Shown here in pieces: positions 698 to 35,939 of a stretch of 39,933 nucleotides of DNA. This stretch comes from a virus. Taxonomy: Duplodnaviria > Heunggongvirae > Uroviricota > Caudoviricetes. The stretch is taken from positions 1 to 39,933 of IMG/VR virus record IMGVR_UViG_2778261217_000006; one strand, 5' to 3'. Below the pieces are notes generated by a model. That model was not told the DNA's origin. It was given only the letters and a program-made list of their open reading frames with translations, and searched no databases. Each line of letters opens with the position of its first letter. The first letter of the stretch is position 1. A program made the position numbers and the translations under genes.

Positions 698-1060
698 GGG
701 GCTGATTCTGGATTCGACGGGATTTGCGAAACCCAAGGTGCATGCCGAGGGGCGGTTGGCCTCGTAAAAAGCCGCAAAAAATAGTCGCAAACGACGAAAA
801 CTACGCTTTAGCAGCTTAATAACCTGCTTAGAGCCCTCTCTCCCTAGCCTCCGCTCTTAGGACGGGGATCAAGAGAGGTCAAACCCAAAAGAGATCGCGT
901 GGAAGCCCTGCCTGGGGTTGAAGCGTTAAAACTTAATCAGGCTAGTTTGTTAGTGGCGTGTCCGTCCGCAGCTGGCAAGCGAATGTAAAGACTGACTAAG
1001 CATGTAGTACCGAGGATGTAGGAATTTCGGACGCGGGTTCAACTCCCGCCAGCTCCACCA
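698..1060 (+). ncRNA. ssrA: tmRNA (transfer-messenger RNA, SsrA)
   Basis: Starts GGGGCTGATTCTGGATTCGACGGG, contains the tag-reading-frame region (GCAAACGACGAAAACTACGCTTTAGCAGCTTAA) and ends ...GGTTCAACTCCCGCCAGCTCCACCA; 363 nt. Confidence 0.95.
1016..1060 (+). repeat. attL core: ssrA 3'-end copy of a 45-bp direct repeat
   Basis: Identical 45-mer ATGTAGGAATTTCGGACGCGGGTTCAACTCCCGCCAGCTCCACCA recurs at 34500..34544. Confidence 0.85.
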
Positions 1061-23760: not shown

Positions 23761-24600
23761 TTAGATGGCTGGGTTGATGTAATCACCCACGTCATCACCT
23801 TGTAGACTAATGTACTCAACCCGCCACTGGTCCATTCGCCGTAACGCATACAGACTGAATTCAACGTCAGGAACTGCGTTACAAGACATAAGCGCAATGA
23901 GTTCACTTTCAGACGCATCACCATGGTACGTTACAAAGAACTCTTCAATTTGTGTTGCCGCCTGCTCTGCCTCTGCTCTTGCATCCGGCCCACCATCTAT
24001 AGAATCATAGACAAGATGAATATTCAGTTCGTAAGGTACACCTTCCTCTAAATCATTGAAACGATCTTCGCCTAAATCAAAGAATACACCTATCAAATAG
24101 ACTGAATGTTTGCTAATTATCTTTGCGAGTTCTTTTTCGAATCTAAATTTCTTTGTGTCGAAAGCTCTTAGCCTACTCTCAAAAACATCAGGAAAGGCAG
24201 GTCGCCCATAGCGGGCAGCAAGCCATTGTTTTAAACCTTGCTTTTCCTCAGGGGATATTTGGCAAGTAGGGTCACATCCCACACACGTGAAACGTTCTTT
24301 ATCAATACGAAATTTGTTGTCATGTCTTAGTTCAATTGCATTTTGATTCGCGTCACGCGCTTGCTCTAAATGCAAATGCAGAACTCTGGGATGTTTAGCA
24401 CGTGCATAATTGCTGGCCCCCTTAATGAGAGGGCCAGCAATAAGCTCAACGCTGGGTTCAGAAGAGCTTTGCAAGTCACAATCATGACTGATCACGACAA
24501 CTTTAACGCCTATTTCCTCTTCGGTAAGAATACCCAAAGAAACTGCATCCTCATGCCTAAGAACCTGGCCTTGGCGCCATGCTGTAGCAATATCAACCAT
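23761..24600 (-). CDS. Hypothetical protein, cargo operon gene 3 (279 aa)
   Basis: ATG with AAGGAG upstream; 10 bp after the gene 2 stop; no family I can recognise (Cys cluster FTCVGCDPTC, acidic C-terminus). Confidence 0.7.
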   Translation of the reverse strand: MVDIATAWRQGQVLRHEDAVSLGILTEEEIGVKVVVISHDCDLQSSSEPSVELIAGPLIKGASNYARAKHPRVLHLHLEQARDANQNAIELRHDNKFRIDKERFTCVGCDPTCQISPEEKQGLKQWLAARYGRPAFPDVFESRLRAFDTKKFRFEKELAKIISKHSVYLIGVFFDLGEDRFNDLEEGVPYELNIHLVYDSIDGGPDARAEAEQAATQIEEFFVTYHGDASESELIALMSCNAVPDVEFSLYALRRMDQWRVEYISLQGDDVGDYINPAI

Positions 24601-24610
24601 AAATGACTAT

Positions 24611-25252
24611 CTACTCCTTCATTCCTGAACCAGGTATAGAAACAGACGACATCCACCCGTCAGTTGGCGTGCTTTTGCTCCCAGTTAAATTCGCTTTTAC
24701 ACCTGCAATTTTAAGCTGGCGAGCTTCATCGATTAAGAGATTCACAGACGACTTCCAGTCATCGCCTCGCTTAATCAAATCAATAATAGATAAGCCGTCA
24801 AACGCTTTCATTTTTGACATCAACTTAGCATTTTCTACTCCTGCTTTGTTAAAGCGATCGGCTAATCTACTGAGTTCAATGATGTAACCAGCTTTCCCAA
24901 TATCATCAGGCTGACTGTCACCGGATAACCATTTGTATAATGCTTGCCTAGTAATACCCAAATCTTTAGCCAGTTCTGACATTGATGGAGAAAGAGTATC
25001 CCTAACATTACTTAAATGTTCTGAAATTGTCCTGATATCAACAGGGTCATTATCTGTATCCCCATGATTTTCAAGTTTAGATAACCCAAAATGGACTTTA
25101 GGTTGTACAAAACCACGCCACTGGTTTACATCCTTCACAGAATAGCTCGCTCCTGTTCCACTCAGGAACATAGAGGTTGCAACAAATAACGCTCCAGCAA
25201 TAGGAGCTAAACCAGGAGTCCCATAGCAACTACCAGTCATGGATTGACGCAT
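24611..25252 (-). CDS. Hypothetical protein with central XRE-type helix-turn-helix, cargo operon gene 2 (213 aa)
   Basis: Start set at the ATG preceded by GGGGAGGTG (the track ORF begins at a GTG at 25279); HTH MSELAKDLGITRQALYKWLSG; hydrophobic Gly-rich N-terminal segment. Confidence 0.7.
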   Translation of the reverse strand: MRQSMTGSCYGTPGLAPIAGALFVATSMFLSGTGASYSVKDVNQWRGFVQPKVHFGLSKLENHGDTDNDPVDIRTISEHLSNVRDTLSPSMSELAKDLGITRQALYKWLSGDSQPDDIGKAGYIIELSRLADRFNKAGVENAKLMSKMKAFDGLSIIDLIKRGDDWKSSVNLLIDEARQLKIAGVKANLTGSKSTPTDGWMSSVSIPGSGMKE

Positions 25253-25269
25253 ATTACACCTCCCCGGTG

Positions 25270-26076
25270 TTATACCCACCTATTAATGGCATGTTGGGAT
25301 ACCATTTTATTAAAGCTTTCCTTTACAACACCATGTAGTGAATTGAACTGTTGCTCAATTGAATCTATTTCTGGCGGCATGTTTCCTTCAACATAATGGT
25401 CTGTATCAATAATTCCATGCCAAAGAGCCTTGTCGCTCCTGAACCGCTCAAGCATTTCAACCCCAAAGGGCAAGATATCTGGAGGAAAACTCAACTGACC
25501 AAACATCTTATGCAAACGAGTTACTAAAAAGCCAGTACTTATAACAGGACCAACATTTGTTTGGAAAACCATCTCGTTAACCGATTGTATCGGAGATAAA
25601 TCCAAATCTACACCATGTAAGCCATTGCAAAGGTACTGCTCAATCTTTTCACCCTCACTAGGTATTACGGCATCCAGATACCTCAAACCAAGTCTTGTCA
25701 AAAGGGCTGGGTTAGCATGTTCTATTACGACAGACAATCCTTCCATCAATGCTTTAAAGAACGGTTCATGTTCTTTGTAATCAGTCGTCTGGAAAGTAAT
25801 AAAATCGTTACCCAAGACAAAACCTGAAGTCTTAGTGATGTCAGACATATACCACTGCTGGACCATTTCAAAAGATGGCTGAGGCGATTCACCGGGCGTA
25901 TTAACATCAAACACCATTTGCATTGCCTCTCTTCTTTCAAAGAGTGGATAGCCCCTTAAACGCAATGCTTCCTGAATGTCATCGACATACTTTTTCATCG
26001 CCTTGATAGGCGTAAACTTAACTTGCGCCAGCACATAGTATACGGGTGCATTGGACATGCGATTGCTGTCACTCAT
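25270..26076 (-). CDS. Hypothetical protein, cargo operon gene 1 (268 aa)
   Basis: ATG preceded by AGGAGG; first gene of a co-directional trio; no recognisable P2/186 core homolog. Confidence 0.75.
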   Translation of the reverse strand: MSDSNRMSNAPVYYVLAQVKFTPIKAMKKYVDDIQEALRLRGYPLFERREAMQMVFDVNTPGESPQPSFEMVQQWYMSDITKTSGFVLGNDFITFQTTDYKEHEPFFKALMEGLSVVIEHANPALLTRLGLRYLDAVIPSEGEKIEQYLCNGLHGVDLDLSPIQSVNEMVFQTNVGPVISTGFLVTRLHKMFGQLSFPPDILPFGVEMLERFRSDKALWHGIIDTDHYVEGNMPPEIDSIEQQFNSLHGVVKESFNKMVSQHAINRWV

Positions 26077-26275: not shown

Positions 26276-26299
26276 AAAAGCCCGCCAGTTCTGGCGGGC
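26276..26299 (-). terminator. Hairpin downstream of the DinI-like gene
   Basis: GCCCGCCAG-TT-CTGGCGGGC stem-loop with a short U-run on the minus strand. Confidence 0.45.
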
Positions 26300-26434
26300 C
26301 TTAGCAAAAACGATCCTCAAACGATCATGCGATCTCATGCGGCATAGACATGCACTACAGAGCTAACGCCTCGCAAGGACTCGTTGTTCAACCTTGCTGA
26401 CGCCAGAAGCAAGTTCAGACGCCAGCAACGTTTC

Positions 26435-26668
26435 TTAATGCAGCCAGCTGTCGTCTTCCCACACCTTCTGCATAATTTTCATCACTTGTTTTCTTTCTTC
26501 GTCCTGTTGCAGCCCGGTCAGTTCCACACCGTTAGAGCTACCTTTGCGGATACGAATTACCATTTTGGGATACAGGGGGCGCAGATTGCGGTAAAGCTCG
26601 GATTCAAGGGCGTCCAGGGTAGACTGGCTAATCTTCTGCTCTTTATCGATCATTATTTCAATGCGCAT
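26435..26668 (-). CDS. DinI-family protein (78 aa)
   Basis: MRIEIMIDK...IDALESEL...VWEDDSWLH aligns along its length with E. coli DinI; start set at the ATG with GAGG upstream (the track ORF begins at 26740). Confidence 0.8.
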   Translation of the reverse strand: MRIEIMIDKEQKISQSTLDALESELYRNLRPLYPKMVIRIRKGSSNGVELTGLQQDEERKQVMKIMQKVWEDDSWLH

Positions 26669-26678
26669 AAAAGTCACC

Positions 26679-26867
26679 TCAGCTGATGACATCCATTGAG
26701 CGGTTGTATTCGTGGCTTCTGATTTTTGCCATGAGTTCATCAGTCAATTCAGAAACCCACTGCAGAGCCAGCCCCTTCTCTTCATCACTACACTCACTAG
26801 CCGCTACAAGCTTAAGAAAAAAATCAATGCGCTGGAGCTTCAAAGACTCCAAAAAAAAGTCCTGCAT
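26679..26867 (-). CDS. Small hypothetical protein (62 aa), first gene of the LexA-box operon
   Basis: ATG preceded by AGGAGGAAAG; directly downstream of the LexA box. Confidence 0.55.
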   Translation of the reverse strand: MQDFFLESLKLQRIDFFLKLVAASECSDEEKGLALQWVSELTDELMAKIRSHEYNRSMDVIS

Positions 26868-26908
26868 CTTTCCTCCTATGACACCACAAGCAATACTGTA
26901 TATATAAC

Positions 26909-26928
26909 CACTGTTTATAATTACAGTA
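26909..26928. promoter_or_regulatory. LexA operator (SOS box)
   Basis: CACTGTTTATAATTACAGTA matches CTGT-N8-ACAG with AT-rich spacer; located in the promoter region of the minus-strand small-ORF/DinI operon. Confidence 0.6.
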
Positions 26929-27021
26929 TATAATAATCTTACTGATGTAAAACGTTTTTTTTACGTTCATCAGCCTAATATGCCTGGTATTATTAAGAGC
27001 ACGAATTGTTAACCTGCGTAA

Positions 27022-29436
27022 TCAATACAGGTTCCGCCACTTATCATCTTCCTGCAAACGCTGGTTCCGATAGAAGATACGCAGGCCTGCTCCTGACGGA
27101 ATACTGCCGCCGCGAATGAGTAAATCGACCTCTTTCTCGCTGCCATCAAATCCTCTGGACTTCAGTTCATAGACGAGCTGCTGTCGTTGATGGTCAGTAA
27201 TTCGCTGTTTGTAGTCTCTACGCCGTTTCGGTTTCACCAGGCGTAACCTTGCAGCCAGTTCCCGGCGCTCTTTTTTGTTCATACTGTGCAGGTAATCGTG
27301 CAACTCCTTGTCATCCATGCGGGTGATATCCGTTCTGGTATCCCCATCAGCTGATTTGTCTTTCCCTTGTTGGTACAAATTTTCAGCAAGGGGACAGTTA
27401 TTGCCACGAGTCCAAGGGGCGCAAGCGCCCTGGTCGGCTGCCGCCTCCTGAACGTCAACGGCCTTACGAACCATTTTCCACTTCACTGCATGAGTGCAGA
27501 TCTTGCCCTCTGCAATGGGTGACCAGATGCCATAAATACGAATACCGTGATCGCCATAGGCGGTCGGCTCTTCGTTAATTTCATAAGCAGTTCTGATGAG
27601 GTGATATTTACGGGGAACCAGTACACCTCCCTGCTTCATGATATAGGTGGCAAAACAACCAGCATCAGCAGCAGCCAGAATGGCATCAAGGCGCGGGTTA
27701 TCCAGTACCGGCACACCTGCTTTTTTGTCACCCTGCTGCCTTGCCGCCTGACCAGCCAGCAATCGCAGTTCACGGTAAGCCTGACGCCCCGGAATGCCAA
27801 AGAAGCGGAATTGCTGAACACGATGCAAAGACGCCCAGGCATTCACGTATTCAGCGTTATCACGCAGAGATTTACCCGTTTCCTTGCTGATCTCGCCAGC
27901 CAGACCACGCCCGTCAATGTTCTTGCTGATATATTTCGCGATGTAGCTTGTCGGCGTTCCTTTGCGCGGGTTAATCAACTCAGACTTAAAGCGTGGTCCC
28001 GTGTTATTCCCCAGCTCCTCGCGGTCTTCACGAATGGCAAACTTACGCAACAAAGCAGTAATGGCGCGGCGATCTTTTTTGCGCATGAAACACAACAGGT
28101 GCCAGTGAACTGTGCCGTCATGATGCGGCTCAGCCACCCGCACGCCATACCAGCGCAACCCGGCTTTGTGCATAGCCTTACGAAATGCAGCAAACATACC
28201 GACCAGATAATCGCTGCTTTGTCTTACTGTCGCGTTGGTCCAGGTCGGGTTTGGCCTGCCGTTATTTAGCGTGGAATGGAAACGTGACGGACAGGTGATG
28301 GTGTAGAAAACGGCGCAGTCACCACGCATTTCCGCGATAAGCTCCAGACCTTTAACGCAGGCCATCATCTCATTGCGGCGATGCGCCGGGTTGCTGCTGC
28401 TGGCGTTTACCACATCCTCCATGTCCAGCATGTCGCCGTCTTCGTTCACCAGTTCATGAGAACGGAAAAACTCCAGCGACTTACGGCGCTGCTCACGTTT
28501 ATGCATCACGGCTTCATAGCTGACATAGGGAGATGCTTTTTTGCTGACCAGACAGACAGCACGCAACTGCTCTTCCCGCCATTCGCAACGCATCTTCCAT
28601 AATTTCCGATACCACCAGTCGGCGCACAGCATACGCGCCAGCGAACCCGGAATGAGTTCATAGGGCACAGGTTTGCGGCGGTTTCTTTTCCGGCGGAGTT
28701 GCTCAAACGCAGGCGGTATGACATCCAGTCGCAGGGTTTCTGCTGCCACCTTTTCCCATGTCTTGCGGATTTCTTCCGGCTTAACATCATCGGAGGCGTA
28801 CAAATCACCACAAGCGGCATCAAGACACATGCTCATATGCGCAGCGACAAGGGTGGACAGGCGTTTCACCTGATCCTGACTCATTTCAGGCAGGATCAGC
28901 AGACCATCCAGCCCTTCATGGCTTGCCATAAAACGAAAAGATGCAGATAGCTGGCTGTCGCGTACATGCTCCAGTCGTTCCAGGCATGGCTTAATCGTCT
29001 CACGCAAATAGCGGGAATAAGCCTTTGGCCTGCCCAGGTTGCTGAAGTATTTAATACGTTGCATCAGCGGCTTGCTGATATGGGAAGGCTGGGCGTTGAC
29101 ATCCGCCAGAATGACCATGTCTGGATTAAAACGCTGCTGCTCATGCGCCAGCTTTGCCCGGCTAATTAGCTTATCCTGCTCCATTTCGCGCTGGACAGGA
29201 TCACGGGATTCATTAAAGAAATAACGCTCCCAGACCTGATCACTCAGTGCCTCGCGGCGCAGTTGTTCCTGCTCGTTATCGGCAGCGTACAGAGTGATCA
29301 GATTTGAAAGCGCAGAAACCGGCGCAACTTCCGCCGGGTCCAGATAAGGGTTAATGGCCTTTTTCGGGCTGTTCCATGAGAATGCTGCGGCAGCCTCGTT
29401 AAAGCCGCAGCAGTTGTTCATATCGGCATGACTCAT
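27022..29436 (-). CDS. A: Replication initiation endonuclease gpA (rolling-circle)
   Basis: 804 aa, P2/186 A-like. Confidence 0.9.
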
Positions 29437-30290
29437 GCACGTACTCCGTACACGGCAGAACTGTCCACGCCACGCGAATAATCAAATCCCACCCAGCAGC
29501 GCGGCCCGGAAACAGCAATGATTTCTGTTGCTGATTTACCCTCGCCAGCTGCCACACCGATGCTGCGTTTTACCTTGATATAGTGGTGAGTAAAATTGCG
29601 ATACAGCGAACGGATCAGGGATGTGTCACTGTTAGAAACAATGACCGGATGTCCTTCTGATGACCGATGTTCAAGAACGGATGCCAGGTGATACTGGTCA
29701 TCTTCAGTGAAACCATCAGTGTGATAGCCGGAAAACGTACCGTCATACGGCGGATCGCAATACACCACATCCCCCGCCTTCAACATCGCCAGCGTTTCAT
29801 CAAAGCTGGCGCAGATAAACGTTGCTCGCTGGGCTTTTTCTGCAAATGCGCGAATTTCTTTTTCAGGGAAATACGGATTTTTATAATTACCGTAGGGAAT
29901 GTTGAAATGCCCGCTCTTGTTATAGCGACATAAACCACGGTAACCGTGACGATTGAGATACAGGAAATATACTGCTTTCATGAAATCAGTAATTTCAGTT
30001 GAGTAATTAAACTCCTGCCTTATGTTGTAATAAGCCATCTCCCTGTTTGCGTTCTCAAATAAAACTCTGGCGCGAGATATAAACGATTCACAATCAGCAG
30101 CAACCTTTTTATAGAGGTTGATTAAATCAGGATTAATATCCGCAACAAGATAGCTGGGGTACTCCGTCTCCATCATCACTGCACAGGAACCCGCGAAAGG
30201 TTCAACCAGTCGCGGGCCAGCAGGAAGATGCTTTTTCAGTTCGGACATAATGGCGGTTTTATTTCCCGCCCATTTCAGGATGGTGCTCAT
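29433..30290 (-). CDS. DNA adenine methyltransferase (Dam family)
   Basis: ILKWAGNK and DPPY motifs; start set at the ATG with GGAGGTG upstream (the track ORF begins at 30350). Confidence 0.85.
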
Positions 30291-30514
30291 ACAGCACCTC
30301 CGTTGTAATGTTTGCCTTTCAGCTCTGCGATTTCCTGACAGGTAATGCAAAGCTGCACACCCGGAATGGCACGACGGCGTGCTGGCGGAATTGGCGCTTC
30401 ACACTCAACGCAAAGCACGCGGGACACGCCCGGCGTTTTGGCACGGGCAGCACGGATATGACGTTGGCGTTCTTCTTCAACTCGCTGCTGTACGAGATCC
30501 ATTGCATCAGCCAT
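30287..30514 (-). CDS. TraR/DksA-family C4 zinc-finger protein
   Basis: 75 aa with CVECEAPIP...CITCQ. Confidence 0.7.
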   Translation of the reverse strand: MADAMDLVQQRVEEERQRHIRAARAKTPGVSRVLCVECEAPIPPARRRAIPGVQLCITCQEIAELKGKHYNGGAV

Positions 30515-32600: not shown

Positions 32601-32777
32601 AGTGCAGTATCTCTTGGTTTAAGCTCGTTTTATGATGTTTAACCCCAACTTCTAAACTCTCATATTAGAAGTTAAATACAAAAATACGATCTCGTTATTG
32701 GATTGTCAAATGGAGAGTTCATCTTGAAGATTAGTACAGGTGCAAATACGGGAGGGAGAGAGACCATCAAAAGGCTG

Positions 32778-33353
32778 ATGACAGCCTATGGTTTCAACAC
32801 TCAGATAGCGTTGGTTGAACACCTCGAAGCATCAAAAAGCACCATGGCAAACAGGATGTTACGTGATAGCTTCCCTGCTGACTGGGTTATTCAATGTGCC
32901 CTTGAAACAGGTATTTCTCTTCTTTGGCTGACAACGGGCCAAGGGGAAATGTATCCTCAAACAGAAGAAAAAAATAAGTTCAAAAACGAGAGTTCACCTA
33001 CAGTTCGCCCCCTTTCAAAGATAGTTATCCCATCAGTAAGGCAGGCAACCATTGAGAACGGAACGCTCGAAGAGATGGGGGATGTTTTCCTTGATCAGAC
33101 TTTGATACCCGGAAAAGCCGAATATTGTTTGTACGTCAAAGCTAACGACGGCAATTACATTGTTGATACATCAACAAAACAGCTTAGTAACGGAATTTGG
33201 CTCATAGACATCGACGGTATGAAAAACATCGTCAAAATTGCGCGCATACCTGGAAACAAAATAGTAGTTAACCAAGATGACACTTCATTTGAATGTTCTG
33301 TAGATGATGTGGAAGTCGTAGGACGTGCAGTCAAAGTAATCAAGAACCTCTAA
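32778..33353 (+). CDS. cI: Immunity repressor CI (186 CI-like, no S24 peptidase domain)
   Basis: N-terminal HTH ending CALETGISLLWLTTGQGE; start set at the ATG at 32778 giving 191 aa (the track ORF begins at a TTG at 32703). Confidence 0.7.
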   Translation: MTAYGFNTQIALVEHLEASKSTMANRMLRDSFPADWVIQCALETGISLLWLTTGQGEMYPQTEEKNKFKNESSPTVRPLSKIVIPSVRQATIENGTLEEMGDVFLDQTLIPGKAEYCLYVKANDGNYIVDTSTKQLSNGIWLIDIDGMKNIVKIARIPGNKIVVNQDDTSFECSVDDVEVVGRAVKVIKNL

Positions 33354-33356
33354 CTT

Positions 33357-34382
33357 ATGACCATCAGAAAACAGCCGAACGGAAAGTGGTTATGTGAATG
33401 CTACCCAAACGGGAGAGATGGCAAACGCGTACGCAAACAATTTGCGACGAAAGGCGAAGCCATTGCGTTTGAGAATTTCACCATGGATGAGGTAAACAAG
33501 AAACCTTGGCTGGGAGAAAAGGAAGATCGGCGACAACTGTCAGAAGTGATTGAGCAATGGTATTCCCTGTACGGTCAGACACTCGCTGACCCTAAGCGAT
33601 TAATGGCTAAGTTAAAAATCATTTGTAATGGACTTGGCGATCCCATCGCTTCTGAATTGACAGCAGGTGATTTCACAAAGTACCGGGAAGCCAGATTAAA
33701 AGGTGAGGTCAAAAACGAAGATGGCGTGCTCATGTCACCGGTTAAGCCCAGAACGGTGAACCTTGAACAGCGTAACCTATCCTCAGTTTTTGGCACACTG
33801 AAAAAGCTGGGACATTGGTCTGCACCCAACCCCCTCGCCGGTCTGCCAACTTTCAAAATTGCAGAAGGTGAACTGGCGTTCCTTGCTGCTGATGAAATCA
33901 AACGCCTGCTTGACGCATGTGCTGAATCTCAAAGTCCCAGTCTGCTAATGATTGCCAAGATTTGCCTGGCTACCGGGGCAAGATGGAGCGAAGCCGAAAA
34001 CCTGCAAGGTAACCAGATATCAAAGTATCGAATTACCTATACCAAAACAAAAGGAAAGAAAAACCGAACTGTTCCTATTTCTCAGGAACTGTATGAAGAA
34101 TTACCCAAAAACAGAGGAAAGTTATTCACACCATGCCGAAAGGCTTTTGAGCGTGCGGTAAAACGAGCTGGAATTGAACTACCTGAAGGTCAATGTACCC
34201 ACGTTCTGCGCCACACTTTCGCCAGTCACTTTATGATGAACGGCGGAAACATTTTGGTATTGAGGGATATTTTAGGACACGCTGATATTAAAATGACCAT
34301 GATTTATGCCCATTTTGCACCGGATCATCTGGAAGATGCCGTTACCAAAAATCCACTTCATAACCTCAACTGGCATCGCTAA
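33357..34382 (+). CDS. int: Tyrosine integrase (P2/186 type)
   Basis: 341 aa with catalytic RHRY context (ARWSE, HVLRHTF, MIYAHF); 4 nt after cI and about 120 bp from the att repeat. Confidence 0.9.
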   Translation: MTIRKQPNGKWLCECYPNGRDGKRVRKQFATKGEAIAFENFTMDEVNKKPWLGEKEDRRQLSEVIEQWYSLYGQTLADPKRLMAKLKIICNGLGDPIASELTAGDFTKYREARLKGEVKNEDGVLMSPVKPRTVNLEQRNLSSVFGTLKKLGHWSAPNPLAGLPTFKIAEGELAFLAADEIKRLLDACAESQSPSLLMIAKICLATGARWSEAENLQGNQISKYRITYTKTKGKKNRTVPISQELYEELPKNRGKLFTPCRKAFERAVKRAGIELPEGQCTHVLRHTFASHFMMNGGNILVLRDILGHADIKMTMIYAHFAPDHLEDAVTKNPLHNLNWHR

Positions 34383-34499: not shown

Positions 34500-34544
34500 A
34501 TGTAGGAATTTCGGACGCGGGTTCAACTCCCGCCAGCTCCACCA
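34500..34544 (+). repeat. attR core: second copy of the 45-bp ssrA 3'-end repeat; also the left boundary of the next island
   Basis: Identical to 1016..1060. Confidence 0.85.
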
Positions 34545-34709
34545 CTTTTTAGTTGTTTGAAGTTCAATGAAGTCTACTAAGCCCACACAGCACAAGCTCT
34601 GCGGGCTTTTTTACGTCTATTGTCGTCCAGTGAGAATTGCTGAGAACTACGAGTTATGGCACCCTGAATGGGACCCATTAAGAAGGGTCCAAAAACCGAG
34701 GGTCCCAAA

Positions 34710-35939
34710 ATGGCAAAAATCGCTAAGAAGCTCACTGACACTGAAATCAAAAGCACCAAGCCAGCCGATAAAGAAATCAACTTGTTTGACGGTGATGGTC
34801 TGATTCTACGAATCGCTCCTTTGGCGAAAGGAGGCAAGAAAAATTGGTATTTCAGGTATGCAGTACCAGTGAGCAAGAAAAGAACCAAAATGAGCCTTGG
34901 GACATATCCTCACCTTACCCTTGCAAGAGCCAGAGCCTTACGTGATGAATATCTCTCCTTTCTGGCAAATGGTGTTGATCCCCAAATCCATAACAACGAT
35001 AAGGCGAAGGCATTAAAGAGTGCTACTGAGCACACTCTCCAAGCCGTAGCGCGGAAATGGTTAGATGAGAAGGTAAAGACATCAGGTATCTCACAAGACC
35101 ATGCAGCAGACATCTGGCGCAGCTTAGAGAGAAATGTCTTTCCCGGTCTGGGTAATGTCCCTATCAATGAGATCCGACCTAAGCTCTTAAAACAACACCT
35201 TGATCCTATTGAGCAACGAGGCGTATTGGAAACTCTACGCCGTATCATTTCACGTCTGAATGAAATCTTCCGGTGGGCAGCTACTGAAGAACTTATTGAG
35301 TTCAACCCGGCTGACAACCTTGGTCAAAGATTCAGTAAACCAAAAAAGCAAAATATGCCTGCCCTTCCCCCAAGCGAATTGCCAAGGTTTATGGAATCTT
35401 TGACGAATGCGTCAATCCGGTTGGAAACACGTATGCTAATTGAATGGCAATTGTTGACATGGGTTCGTCCGGGTGAAGCCGTTCGCGCAAGGTGGTCTGA
35501 TATTGATACAACCAACAGCATTTGGAACATTCCTGCTGATTTCATGAAAATGAAAAAGCTTCACAAAGTTCCTTTGAGTAAAGAAGCTTTGCGCATCCTT
35601 GAATTAATGAAATCAATAAGTGGGCATAGAGAATGGGTTTTCCCCAGCATAAAAGCGCCTCTTAATCATATGCATGAACAAACAGCCAACGCAGCTATCA
35701 TCCGAATGGGGTTCGGAGGCGAGCTTGTAGCTCACGGTATGCGTTCTATTGCACGAACAGCGGCAGAGGAGTCTGGTAAATTCAGAGCTGAAGTTCTTGA
35801 GGCAGCGCTTGCCCACTCGAAAAAAGATGAAATTATCGCAGCATACAATCGTGCAGAATATCTGATAGAGCGACAGAGTTTGATGCAATGGTGGAGTGAT
35901 TACGTTCAAGCTCAAAGATCAAATGCTCTGGTAGCCTAA
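34710..35939 (+). CDS. P4-type tyrosine integrase (IntA-like)
   Basis: Begins MAKIAKKLTDTEIKSTKPADKEINLFDGDGL..., the typical P4-integrase N-terminus; ATG at 34710 has GAGGG upstream (the track ORF starts at 34668). Confidence 0.85.
   Translation: MAKIAKKLTDTEIKSTKPADKEINLFDGDGLILRIAPLAKGGKKNWYFRYAVPVSKKRTKMSLGTYPHLTLARARALRDEYLSFLANGVDPQIHNNDKAKALKSATEHTLQAVARKWLDEKVKTSGISQDHAADIWRSLERNVFPGLGNVPINEIRPKLLKQHLDPIEQRGVLETLRRIISRLNEIFRWAATEELIEFNPADNLGQRFSKPKKQNMPALPPSELPRFMESLTNASIRLETRMLIEWQLLTWVRPGEAVRARWSDIDTTNSIWNIPADFMKMKKLHKVPLSKEALRILELMKSISGHREWVFPSIKAPLNHMHEQTANAAIIRMGFGGELVAHGMRSIARTAAEESGKFRAEVLEAALAHSKKDEIIAAYNRAEYLIERQSLMQWWSDYVQAQRSNALVA

What the first reader, a model, noticed from the sequence alone, without database searches (positions are those of the whole stretch)
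26435..26928. LexA-box-controlled small-ORF/DinI-like cassette beside a repressor that lacks an autocleavage domain
A near-consensus SOS box (CACTGTTTATAATTACAGTA) sits in the promoter region of a two-gene minus-strand operon encoding a 62-aa protein and a DinI homologue. The CI repressor of this prophage is of the 186 type with no LexA/lambda-CI-like peptidase domain. That combination suggests prophage induction is coupled to the SOS response through a LexA-repressed antirepressor (186 Tum-like logic), with the 62-aa protein as the antirepressor candidate and DinI modulating RecA.
Basis: partly seen in the sequence, partly recalled or inferred. Interest (0 to 1): 0.5.

Follow-up and report, generated by a model that had tools for sequence, protein, structure and literature searches.

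The report
SOS-controlled split Tum antirepressor cassette
This is the known switch that lets phage-186-type prophages wake up after DNA damage: a small anti-repressor gene plus a DinI-like gene, both kept off by the host LexA protein. It is the split "tumA/tumB" form already described for phages PSP3 and Fels-2, so it is ordinary.

Summary
A LexA box lies in the promoter of a two-gene minus-strand operon: a 62-aa ORF (26679-26867) and a 77-aa DinI-family gene (26435-26668). The operon sits just downstream of replication gene A in a 186/Fels-2-like prophage. Its CI (32703-33353) has the 186-type Pfam domains and no S24 peptidase domain.

The 62-aa protein is 95% identical to Fels-2 STM2728. 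At profile level it is homologous to the N-terminal half of 186 Tum and to PSP3 TumA. Lemire et al. 2011 state that Fels-2 and PSP3 carry tum split into an upstream antirepressor gene and a downstream DinI gene.

Additions from this work:
- The operator is double. A second box (26894-26913) overlaps the first and aligns with the two-box operators of colicin operons. It is present in 25/34 relatives, but not in 186 or PSP3.
- A LexA box precedes the gene in all 195 related loci with enough upstream sequence.
- The DinI gene is optional.
- Nearly identical 62-aa proteins sit beside CI repressors only 30-60% identical to each other, which suggests broad specificity.
- The cassette occurs in 21% of complete E. 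coli genomes, where the 62-aa gene is annotated "hypothetical".

The parts
26946..26951 (-). Probable -35 hexamer, TTTACA
   Evidence: It lies 17 nt upstream of TACTGT and is the commonest hexamer at that position in the family (25 of 34 loci). Inferred by analogy with the annotated 186 p95 promoter.
26909..26928 (-). LexA box 1, TACTGTAATTATAAACAGTG. Its left half, TACTGT (26923-26928), doubles as the probable -10 element.
   Evidence: A CTG-N10-CAG box is present upstream of the homologous gene in all 34 related loci with enough upstream sequence, and in 81/81 Tum-type and 80/80 TumA-type loci.
26894..26913 (-). LexA box 2, CAGTGGTTATATATACAGTA. It overlaps box 1 by 5 nt, giving a colicin-type double operator.
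   Evidence: It matches the 20-mer consensus at 16 of 20 positions. It is in register in 25 of 34 family loci and in none of 161 186/PSP3-type loci. It is identical to the proximal box upstream of a colicin gene on plasmid CP010182.
26872..26877 (-). Ribosome-binding site AGGAGG of the 62-aa gene
   Evidence: Read directly from the sequence. Conserved as AGGAGG(G) in relatives.
26679..26867 (-). tumA-like gene: a 62-aa predicted helical hairpin, the candidate CI antirepressor
   Evidence: phrog_698 at E 1.6e-37. 95% identical to Fels-2 STM2728. Profile links to 186 Tum N-domain and PSP3 TumA. Codon-position pattern 29/17/56. AlphaFold2 model with pLDDT 91, helices 2-23 and 28-61.
26435..26668 (-). 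tumB/DinI-like gene (77 aa). Its GAGGTG ribosome-binding site (26675-26680) overlaps the tumA stop codon.
   Evidence: Pfam DinI E 2.5e-23. phrog_189. 40% identical to 186 Tum residues 71-146. 75% identical to PSP3 TumB.
26276..26302 (-). Probable intrinsic terminator of the operon: a GC-rich hairpin followed by UUUU
   Evidence: Folding energy -24.8 kcal/mol, z-score -4.3. A second hairpin without a U-run lies at about 26390-26432.
32703..33353 (+). cI: 186-type immunity repressor, the presumed target. The true start codon is uncertain.
   Evidence: Pfam Phage_CI_repr E 1.5e-28 and Phage_CI_C E 2.1e-30, with no S24 domain. 32% identical to 186 CI.

Best explanation
The cassette is the SOS-induction module of a 186/Fels-2-like prophage, in its split tumA/tumB form.

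Proposed mechanism:
- In undamaged cells LexA occupies a double operator, two overlapping 20-bp boxes at 26894-26928. This operator covers the -10 region of the promoter and keeps the operon silent.
- DNA damage activates RecA and LexA cleaves itself, so the operon is transcribed.
- The 62-aa helical-hairpin protein (TumA-like) binds the CI repressor, which cannot cleave itself. Binding stops CI from holding its operators, so the lytic promoter is released.
- The co-transcribed DinI-like protein (TumB-like) is an accessory that probably tunes RecA filament activity. It is not required for the switch.

Shown here: the sequence features, their conservation, and the homology.
Inferred from 186, PSP3 and Fels-2: LexA binding, the TumA-CI contact, and the effect on induction.
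For: Position and anatomy match the 186 p95-tum operon.

CI is 186-type without an S24 domain.

The 62-aa protein is 95% identical to its Fels-2 counterpart. It is linked by profiles to the Tum N-domain and to PSP3 TumA. The three share the motif C-x6-[IL]A[LI]-x-[LW][IV][AS][ED][LI] at the same spacing.

The PSP3 record annotates tumA as 'UV induction of prophage'.

PMC3121763 states that Fels-2 and PSP3 have tum split in two, with the upstream gene carrying antirepressor activity in PSP3.

A LexA box lies upstream of the gene in 195 of 195 related loci with enough upstream sequence. Its spacer bases vary while CTG and CAG stay fixed.

CI clusters at 80% or more N-domain identity are pure for antirepressor family, with 1 exception among 168 loci.

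The double operator aligns with colicin operators, which are reported to bind two LexA dimers (PMC2994835).
Against: There is no experiment on this allele or on this CI.

Pairwise BLASTP finds no similarity between the 62-aa protein and Tum or TumA. The profile link to PSP3 TumA is weak: E 0.073 by hhalign and 1.2e-3 against phrog_1993.

Within the family the 62-aa protein does not co-vary with CI. Spearman correlation is about 0 for both CI domains. Proteins 95-98% identical sit beside CIs only 33-57% identical. A strictly allele-specific antirepressor would not be expected to show this.

The association between CI clusters and antirepressor family could reflect shared descent rather than functional pairing.
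Confidence: 0.85

Rival explanations
1. The 62-aa protein is LexA-controlled but is not the antirepressor of the resident CI. It would be a conserved SOS-responsive accessory working with DinI on RecA or LexA, or on another host target. Induction of this prophage would then use another route, or none.
For: The 62-aa protein does not co-vary with CI within the family. The same protein accompanies very different CI alleles. Pfam and NCBIfam have no model for it, and PHROGs calls it 'unknown function'.
Against: It shows profile homology to the antirepressor half of Tum and to PSP3 TumA. It holds the same genomic position and promoter logic as 186 tum. It persists without DinI in 12 of 35 loci. 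CI clusters are pure for antirepressor family. Literature supports the role for Fels-2 and PSP3.
Confidence: 0.09
2. The DinI-like protein is the effector of induction, and the 62-aa protein is only an accessory or a leader peptide.
For: In 186 the DinI-like part belongs to Tum, and truncated DinI-only products are annotated as modulating SOS induction.
Against: DinI is absent from 12 of 35 cassettes of this type and from 30 of 81 PSP3-type cassettes, all of which keep the small gene and the LexA box. In PSP3 the upstream gene is reported to carry the antirepressor activity. Non-polar dinI deletions had no significant effect on Gifsy-1 and Gifsy-3 induction (PMC3121763).
Confidence: 0.04
3. 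The box and the small ORF are chance features or a decayed remnant with no function.
For: The CTGT-N8-ACAG core alone is expected about 0.5 times in a window of this size.
Against: The extended palindrome was found in 0 of 100 shuffles. The box is conserved in 195 of 195 loci. The codon-position pattern shows purifying selection. The cassette is present in 1142 of 5426 complete E. coli genomes.
Confidence: 0.02

Closest known systems
Fels-2 (Salmonella LT2) STM2728.Fels2 plus STM2726.1.Fels2, the split tum locus
   Same: The 62-aa protein is 95% identical and the DinI-like protein 97% identical. The position after gene A is the same. The double LexA operator is the same (L003). The prophage is also inserted at ssrA (the Fels-2 attachment site is from my own knowledge).
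   Different: The CI repressor is only about 57% identical, judged from RE2010 and SE479_1PHIH2, which carry a 62-aa protein equally (95.2%) identical to the window's. Fels-2's own CI was not fetched. The prophage therefore probably has a different immunity type. The cargo genes downstream of the cassette also differ.
PSP3 tumA/tumB
   Same: A two-gene split arrangement: a small antirepressor gene followed by a DinI homologue. It is LexA-boxed, follows gene A, and pairs with a 186-type CI. TumB is 75% identical to the window's DinI-like protein.
   Different: TumA (60 aa) is recognisable only at profile or motif level. PSP3 has a single near-consensus LexA box. Its tumA and tumB are in the same frame, 3 nt apart. 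In the window family the gap is about 9-12 nt and the frame relation varies.
Coliphage 186 p95-tum (Tum, 146 aa)
   Same: A LexA-repressed promoter in which TACTGT serves as both the -10 element and the left half of the box. The antirepressor acts on a non-cleavable CI. The N-domain is homologous to the 62-aa protein, and the C-domain is DinI-like.
   Different: In 186 the two halves are fused in one polypeptide (78 of 81 loci of that type). There is a single LexA box. Internal starts give DinI-only products.
Double overlapping SOS boxes of colicin operons
   Same: The 35-nt operator TACTGT-N8-ACAGTGGTTATATATACAGTA aligns with the operators upstream of colicin genes on plasmids CP010182 and CP023528. 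The proximal box is identical to that of CP010182 and differs at one base from that of CP023528. Colicin operators are reported to bind two LexA dimers and give very tight repression (PMC2994835).
   Different: It controls a prophage antirepressor, not a toxin. The flanking promoter sequence is unrelated. Common origin versus convergence is unresolved.
Gifsy GfoA/GftA and N15 AntC LexA-controlled antirepressors
   Same: The logic is the same: a small LexA-repressed antirepressor, often in an operon with a dinI homologue (PMC3121763).
   Different: The proteins and repressors are unrelated, and the gene order is reversed in Gifsy, with dinI first.

Membership tests
186 Tum / PSP3 TumA LexA-controlled antirepressor module | The gene lies in its own transcription unit just downstream of replication gene A in a P2/186-like genome. 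| tested here: met
   Gene A is at 27022-29436 (Pfam Phage_GPA, E 5.6e-127) and the cassette is at 26435-26928 on the same strand. The layout matches 186, PSP3 and Fels-2.
186 Tum / PSP3 TumA LexA-controlled antirepressor module | A LexA operator overlaps the promoter. | tested here: met
   This is met at sequence level. Boxes lie at 26909-26928 and 26894-26913, and the -10 element is inside box 1. The box is conserved in 195 of 195 related loci. LexA binding itself was not testable.
186 Tum / PSP3 TumA LexA-controlled antirepressor module | Sequence homology to the Tum N-terminal domain or to TumA. | tested here: met
   Met at profile level only. Tum residues 1-70 hit phrog_698 at E 5.9e-6. 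The window protein hits phrog_1993 at 1.2e-3 and phrog_8554 at 6e-9. hhalign gives E 2.4e-4 against the 186 type and 0.073 against the PSP3 type. Pairwise BLASTP is negative.
186 Tum / PSP3 TumA LexA-controlled antirepressor module | The partner repressor is 186-type CI without an autocleavage domain. | tested here: met
   Pfam Phage_CI_repr plus Phage_CI_C, with no Peptidase_S24. There is only a weak PHROG UmuD-like hit at E 0.0025.
186 Tum / PSP3 TumA LexA-controlled antirepressor module | The protein binds CI and blocks its operator binding, and it is required for SOS induction. | not testable with these tools
   Known for 186 Tum (Shearwin et al. 1998, cited). Reported for PSP3 TumA as a personal communication. 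There are no data for this allele.
DinI family (Pfam PF06183) | Match to the family model above its curated threshold. | tested here: met
   82.6 bits against a gathering score of 24.2. For the E. coli DinI equivalog NF007893 the score is 42.4 bits against a cut-off of 111. It is therefore a paralogue, not DinI itself.
DinI family (Pfam PF06183) | Binds RecA filaments. | not testable with these tools
   Not assayable here. The acidic C-terminus (WEDDSWLH) is present.
Colicin-type double SOS operator | Two 20-bp LexA boxes offset by 15 bp, sharing the CAGTG segment. | tested here: met
   The alignment with two colicin-plasmid operators shows the same register, and box 2 is identical to one of them. 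The feature is conserved in 25 of 34 family loci. Occupancy by two LexA dimers was not tested.
Lambda CI / LexA-type autocleavable repressor (considered for the CI) | A C-terminal Peptidase_S24 domain. | tested here: not met
   No S24 match in Pfam at E 0.01 or better.

The most novel reading that the evidence does not exclude
The phrog_698-type TumA may be a broad-specificity antirepressor. A nearly invariant 62-aa hairpin would recognise a conserved surface on many different 186-type CI immunity alleles, probably on the better-conserved N-terminal DNA-binding domain. One SOS-induced copy could then cross-induce co-resident P2-like prophages of other immunity types. Its expression would be gated late in the SOS response by a colicin-type double LexA operator that the 186 and PSP3 lineages lack.
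Probability: 0.3. Interest if true: 0.5.

Novelty: already known. Interest (0 to 1): 0.2.

Why it matters
The cassette explains how a very common class of enterobacterial prophage couples induction to DNA damage without a self-cleaving repressor. It is present in about one in five complete E. coli genomes.

The practical value is in annotation. The 62-aa gene is labelled 'hypothetical protein' in RefSeq and 'unknown function' in PHROGs, and it has no Pfam or NCBIfam model. It can be named a TumA-like antirepressor.

Two side observations are modest but testable leads on how induction timing and cross-talk between P2-like prophages are set:
- the colicin-type double operator;
- the lack of co-variation between the antirepressor and CI.

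Tried and rejected
- Pairwise BLASTP of the 62-aa protein against 186 Tum and PSP3 TumA gave nothing. Profiles were needed.
- Programmed frameshift fusing the two ORFs was rejected. The DinI frame is open for 24 codons upstream of its ATG and overlaps the 62-aa ORF. However, the spacing and frame offset between the two genes vary among relatives (offsets 0, 1 and 2). Each DinI gene also has its own ribosome-binding site.
- A sequence search of the PDB with the 62-aa protein found nothing. With 186 Tum it found only E. coli DinI. The Foldseek search of the predicted hairpin gave only generic helical hairpins with E above 1.
- The generic sigma-70 scan found no promoter. The promoter was placed instead by analogy with the annotated 186 p95 and by family conservation.
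- Fine-scale co-variation between TumA and CI was tested as evidence of a cognate pair, and none was found. Only a family-level association exists.
- A search for CI positions specific to this TumA type gave only three (I22, A49, W61). That is too few to define an interface.
- PADLOC found nothing for the downstream cargo genes.
- Bunny, Liu and Roth 2002 could not be read because it is not held. Its content is cited only through Lemire et al. 2011 and its title.

Full report
**What is there**

The window holds a roughly 33.5-kb 186/Fels-2-like (Peduoviridae) prophage inserted at ssrA. The tmRNA gene is at 698-1060. Its last 45 nt (1016-1060) are repeated at 34500-34544.

On the minus strand, replication gene A (27022-29436, Pfam Phage_GPA E 5.6e-127) is followed by a 154-nt gap. 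After the gap come two genes:
- a 62-aa ORF (26679-26867);
- a 77-aa DinI-family gene (26435-26668, Pfam DinI 82.6 bits against a cut-off of 24.2).

The DinI gene starts 10 nt after the stop of the 62-aa ORF. Its GAGGTG ribosome-binding site overlaps that stop codon. A hairpin without a U-run follows the DinI gene. A strong terminator-like hairpin followed by UUUU lies at 26276-26302.

The immunity region lies about 6 kb away:
- CI at 32703-33353, with Pfam Phage_CI_repr plus Phage_CI_C and no Peptidase_S24 match;
- CII (Phage_CP76), Fil, an Apl-like ORF and the integrase.

**The LexA site**

The CTGT-N8-ACAG core occurs once in the window, at 26911-26926. The core alone is not significant (expected 0.48 per window). 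The extended palindrome ACTGT-W8-ACAGT was found in 0 of 100 shuffles.

On the coding strand the box reads TACTGTAATTATAAACAGTG (26909-26928). Its TACTGT lies 17 nt after TTTACA (26946-26951). This mirrors the annotated 186 p95 promoter, where the -10 is the TACTGT of the LexA box.

Both boxes match the 20-mer consensus at 16 of 20 positions.

A distant BLAST of the 46-nt operator hit more than 1,200 plasmids, mostly mobilizable (792 of 1,236). In the two I opened, the match lies directly upstream of a colicin gene. The 35-nt operator aligns in register with theirs, and box 2 is identical to that of CP010182.

[quoted passage not shown] So the operator here is of the colicin double type. The likely consequence, tighter repression and later firing in the SOS response, is an inference.

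**Is it conserved?**

I collected 197 sequences:
- 32 genomic loci with the window's type of small protein, plus the window and loci from phage records;
- 80 viral contigs with PSP3-type TumA;
- 80 viral contigs with 186-type Tum.

Every locus with at least 100 nt of upstream sequence has a CTG-N10-CAG box within 150 nt of the start codon: 34/34, 80/80 and 81/81. The spacer bases vary while CTG and CAG stay fixed.

The second box is in register in 25 of 34 loci of the window's type, spanning Escherichia, Salmonella, Citrobacter, Enterobacter, Klebsiella and others. Eight of the nine loci that lack it are from Pantoea, Tatumella or Erwinia. It is absent from all 161 loci of the 186 and PSP3 types.

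The 62-aa ORF is a real gene:
- variable columns by codon position are 29/17/56 of 62;
- synonymous codon differences outnumber non-synonymous ones, 8885 to 4810.

**What the 62-aa protein is**

Pfam and NCBIfam have no model for it. PHROGs places it in phrog_698, 'unknown function'. It is 95% identical to Fels-2 STM2728.Fels2. That gene is followed by a DinI gene annotated as similar to PSP3 TumB.

The PSP3 record annotates tumA (60 aa) as 'similar to 5' end 186 tum; UV induction of prophage', and tumB as the DinI-like gene.

186 Tum (146 aa) is DinI-like from residue 71 onward, and that part is 40% identical to the window's DinI-like protein.

Pairwise BLASTP does not connect the window protein with Tum residues 1-70 or with TumA. 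Profiles do:
- Tum 1-70 hits phrog_698 (E 5.9e-6), phrog_8554 (3.4e-12) and phrog_1993 (1.5e-23);
- PSP3 TumA hits phrog_1993 (2.7e-32);
- the window protein hits phrog_8554 (6.2e-9) and phrog_1993 (1.2e-3).

hhalign of family alignments built from the loci gave:

| Comparison | E-value |
|---|---|
| Window type vs 186 type (residues 4-43 of both) | 2.4e-4 |
| 186 type vs PSP3 type | 1e-5 |
| Window type vs PSP3 type | 0.073 |

All three share the motif C-x6-[IL]A[LI]-x-[LW][IV][AS][ED][LI].

AlphaFold2 predicts a helical hairpin with helices 2-23 and 28-61 (pLDDT 91, single sequence). The conserved Cys lies in the turn between them. No informative structural neighbour was found.

**Literature**

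Lemire et al. 2011 (PMC3121763) make four relevant statements:
- Tum looks like an antirepressor fused to DinI.
- Fels-2 and PSP3 have tum split in two by a stop codon.
[quoted passage not shown] 2002).
- dinI deletions had no significant effect on Gifsy-1 and Gifsy-3 induction.

The title of Bunny et al. 2002 attributes lexA-null lethality in Salmonella to Fels-2. That paper itself was not available.

**Extra observations**

1. DinI arrangement differs by type:

| Type | Fused | Separate gene | Absent | Loci |
|---|---|---|---|---|
| 186 Tum | 78 | 2 | 1 | 81 |
| PSP3 TumA | 0 | 51 | 30 | 81 |
| Window type | 0 | 23 | 12 | 35 |

   The small gene is therefore the core of the cassette, and DinI is an accessory.

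2. In PSP3-type loci the two genes are in frame, 3 nt apart. In the window's type the gap is about 9-12 nt and the frame offset varies. A conserved frameshift fusion is therefore ruled out.

3. The antirepressor does not co-vary finely with CI.
   - Proteins 95-98% identical to the window's sit beside CIs only 33-57% identical to the window's.
   - Within the family, Spearman correlation between TumA identity and CI identity is about 0 for both CI domains.
   - At the coarser level, CI clusters at 80% or more N-domain identity are pure for antirepressor family, with 1 exception among 168 loci.
   - Within-type N-domain identity averages 60-79%, against 36-42% between types.
   - This fits an antirepressor that recognises a conserved CI surface, so that one protein serves many alleles. 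Shared ancestry could also explain the coarse association.
   - Among partner CIs, the N-domain (residues 17-81) holds 28 of the 40 positions that are at least 90% conserved.

4. The cassette is present in 1142 of 5426 complete E. coli genomes. There the small gene is annotated 'hypothetical protein'.

**Verdict**

- It is the known split Tum (tumA/tumB) SOS module of Fels-2 and PSP3-like phages.
- The mechanism (LexA release, then TumA sequestering CI, then the lytic switch) is inferred by homology and position. It was not tested for this allele.
- Interest is low. The double colicin-type operator and the apparent breadth of CI partners are the only parts that might merit an experiment.

Noticed in passing
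window 1016-1060 and 34500-34544; tmRNA gene 698-1060: The last 45 nt of ssrA are directly repeated. They bracket the prophage, which is about 33.5 kb with its integrase at 33357-34382. The phage is therefore integrated into ssrA, the site I recall for Fels-2.
   Followed up: partly
window 34668-35939: A second, P4-type integrase (Arm-DNA-bind_3, Phage_int_M, Phage_integrase) lies immediately after the distal ssrA repeat. This suggests a second island in tandem at the same tRNA-like site. By my recollection it resembles CP4-57 intA of E. coli K-12.
   Followed up: no
window 23761-26076, minus strand: Three cargo ORFs lie between the tum cassette's terminator and the portal gene, where 186 has orf97: a 268-aa TIGR04255-family protein (E 3.9e-47), a 222-aa protein with a weak helix-turn-helix match, and a 279-aa protein with no match. 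This position varies between relatives. PADLOC gave no hit. It could be an uncharacterised defence or accessory system.
   Followed up: partly
plasmids CP010182 (L197 1501-1543) and CP023528 (L198 1501-1542): The 35-nt double SOS operator of the prophage cassette is 84-86% identical to operators upstream of colicin genes on Col plasmids. More than 1,200 plasmid records matched. Only the operator is similar, not the flanks. Shared origin versus convergence under LexA constraints is open.
   Followed up: partly
window 32703-33353 (CI residues 135-214): There is a weak PHROG match of the CI C-terminal domain to a UmuD-like family (phrog_3469, E 0.0025), although Pfam finds no S24 domain. This may reflect a distant fold relationship without catalytic function. 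Catalytic residues were not examined.
   Followed up: no
PSP3-type loci L037-L116: In 47 PSP3-type loci tumA and tumB are in the same reading frame, separated only by the stop codon plus 3 nt. Stop-codon read-through would recreate a 186-like fused Tum. This was not examined further.
   Followed up: no
E. coli complete genomes: The cassette occurs in 1142 of 5426 genomes, with up to 4 copies per genome. The 62-aa gene is uniformly annotated 'hypothetical protein', which is an annotation gap for a gene whose function has been inferred in the literature.
   Followed up: partly
window 29433-30350: A D12-class Dam-type adenine methyltransferase gene lies directly upstream of replication gene A (Pfam MethyltransfD12, E 9.9e-77). 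The same gene is annotated at this position in phage vB_EcoM-813R9, but no methylase is annotated in that region of 186.
   Followed up: no
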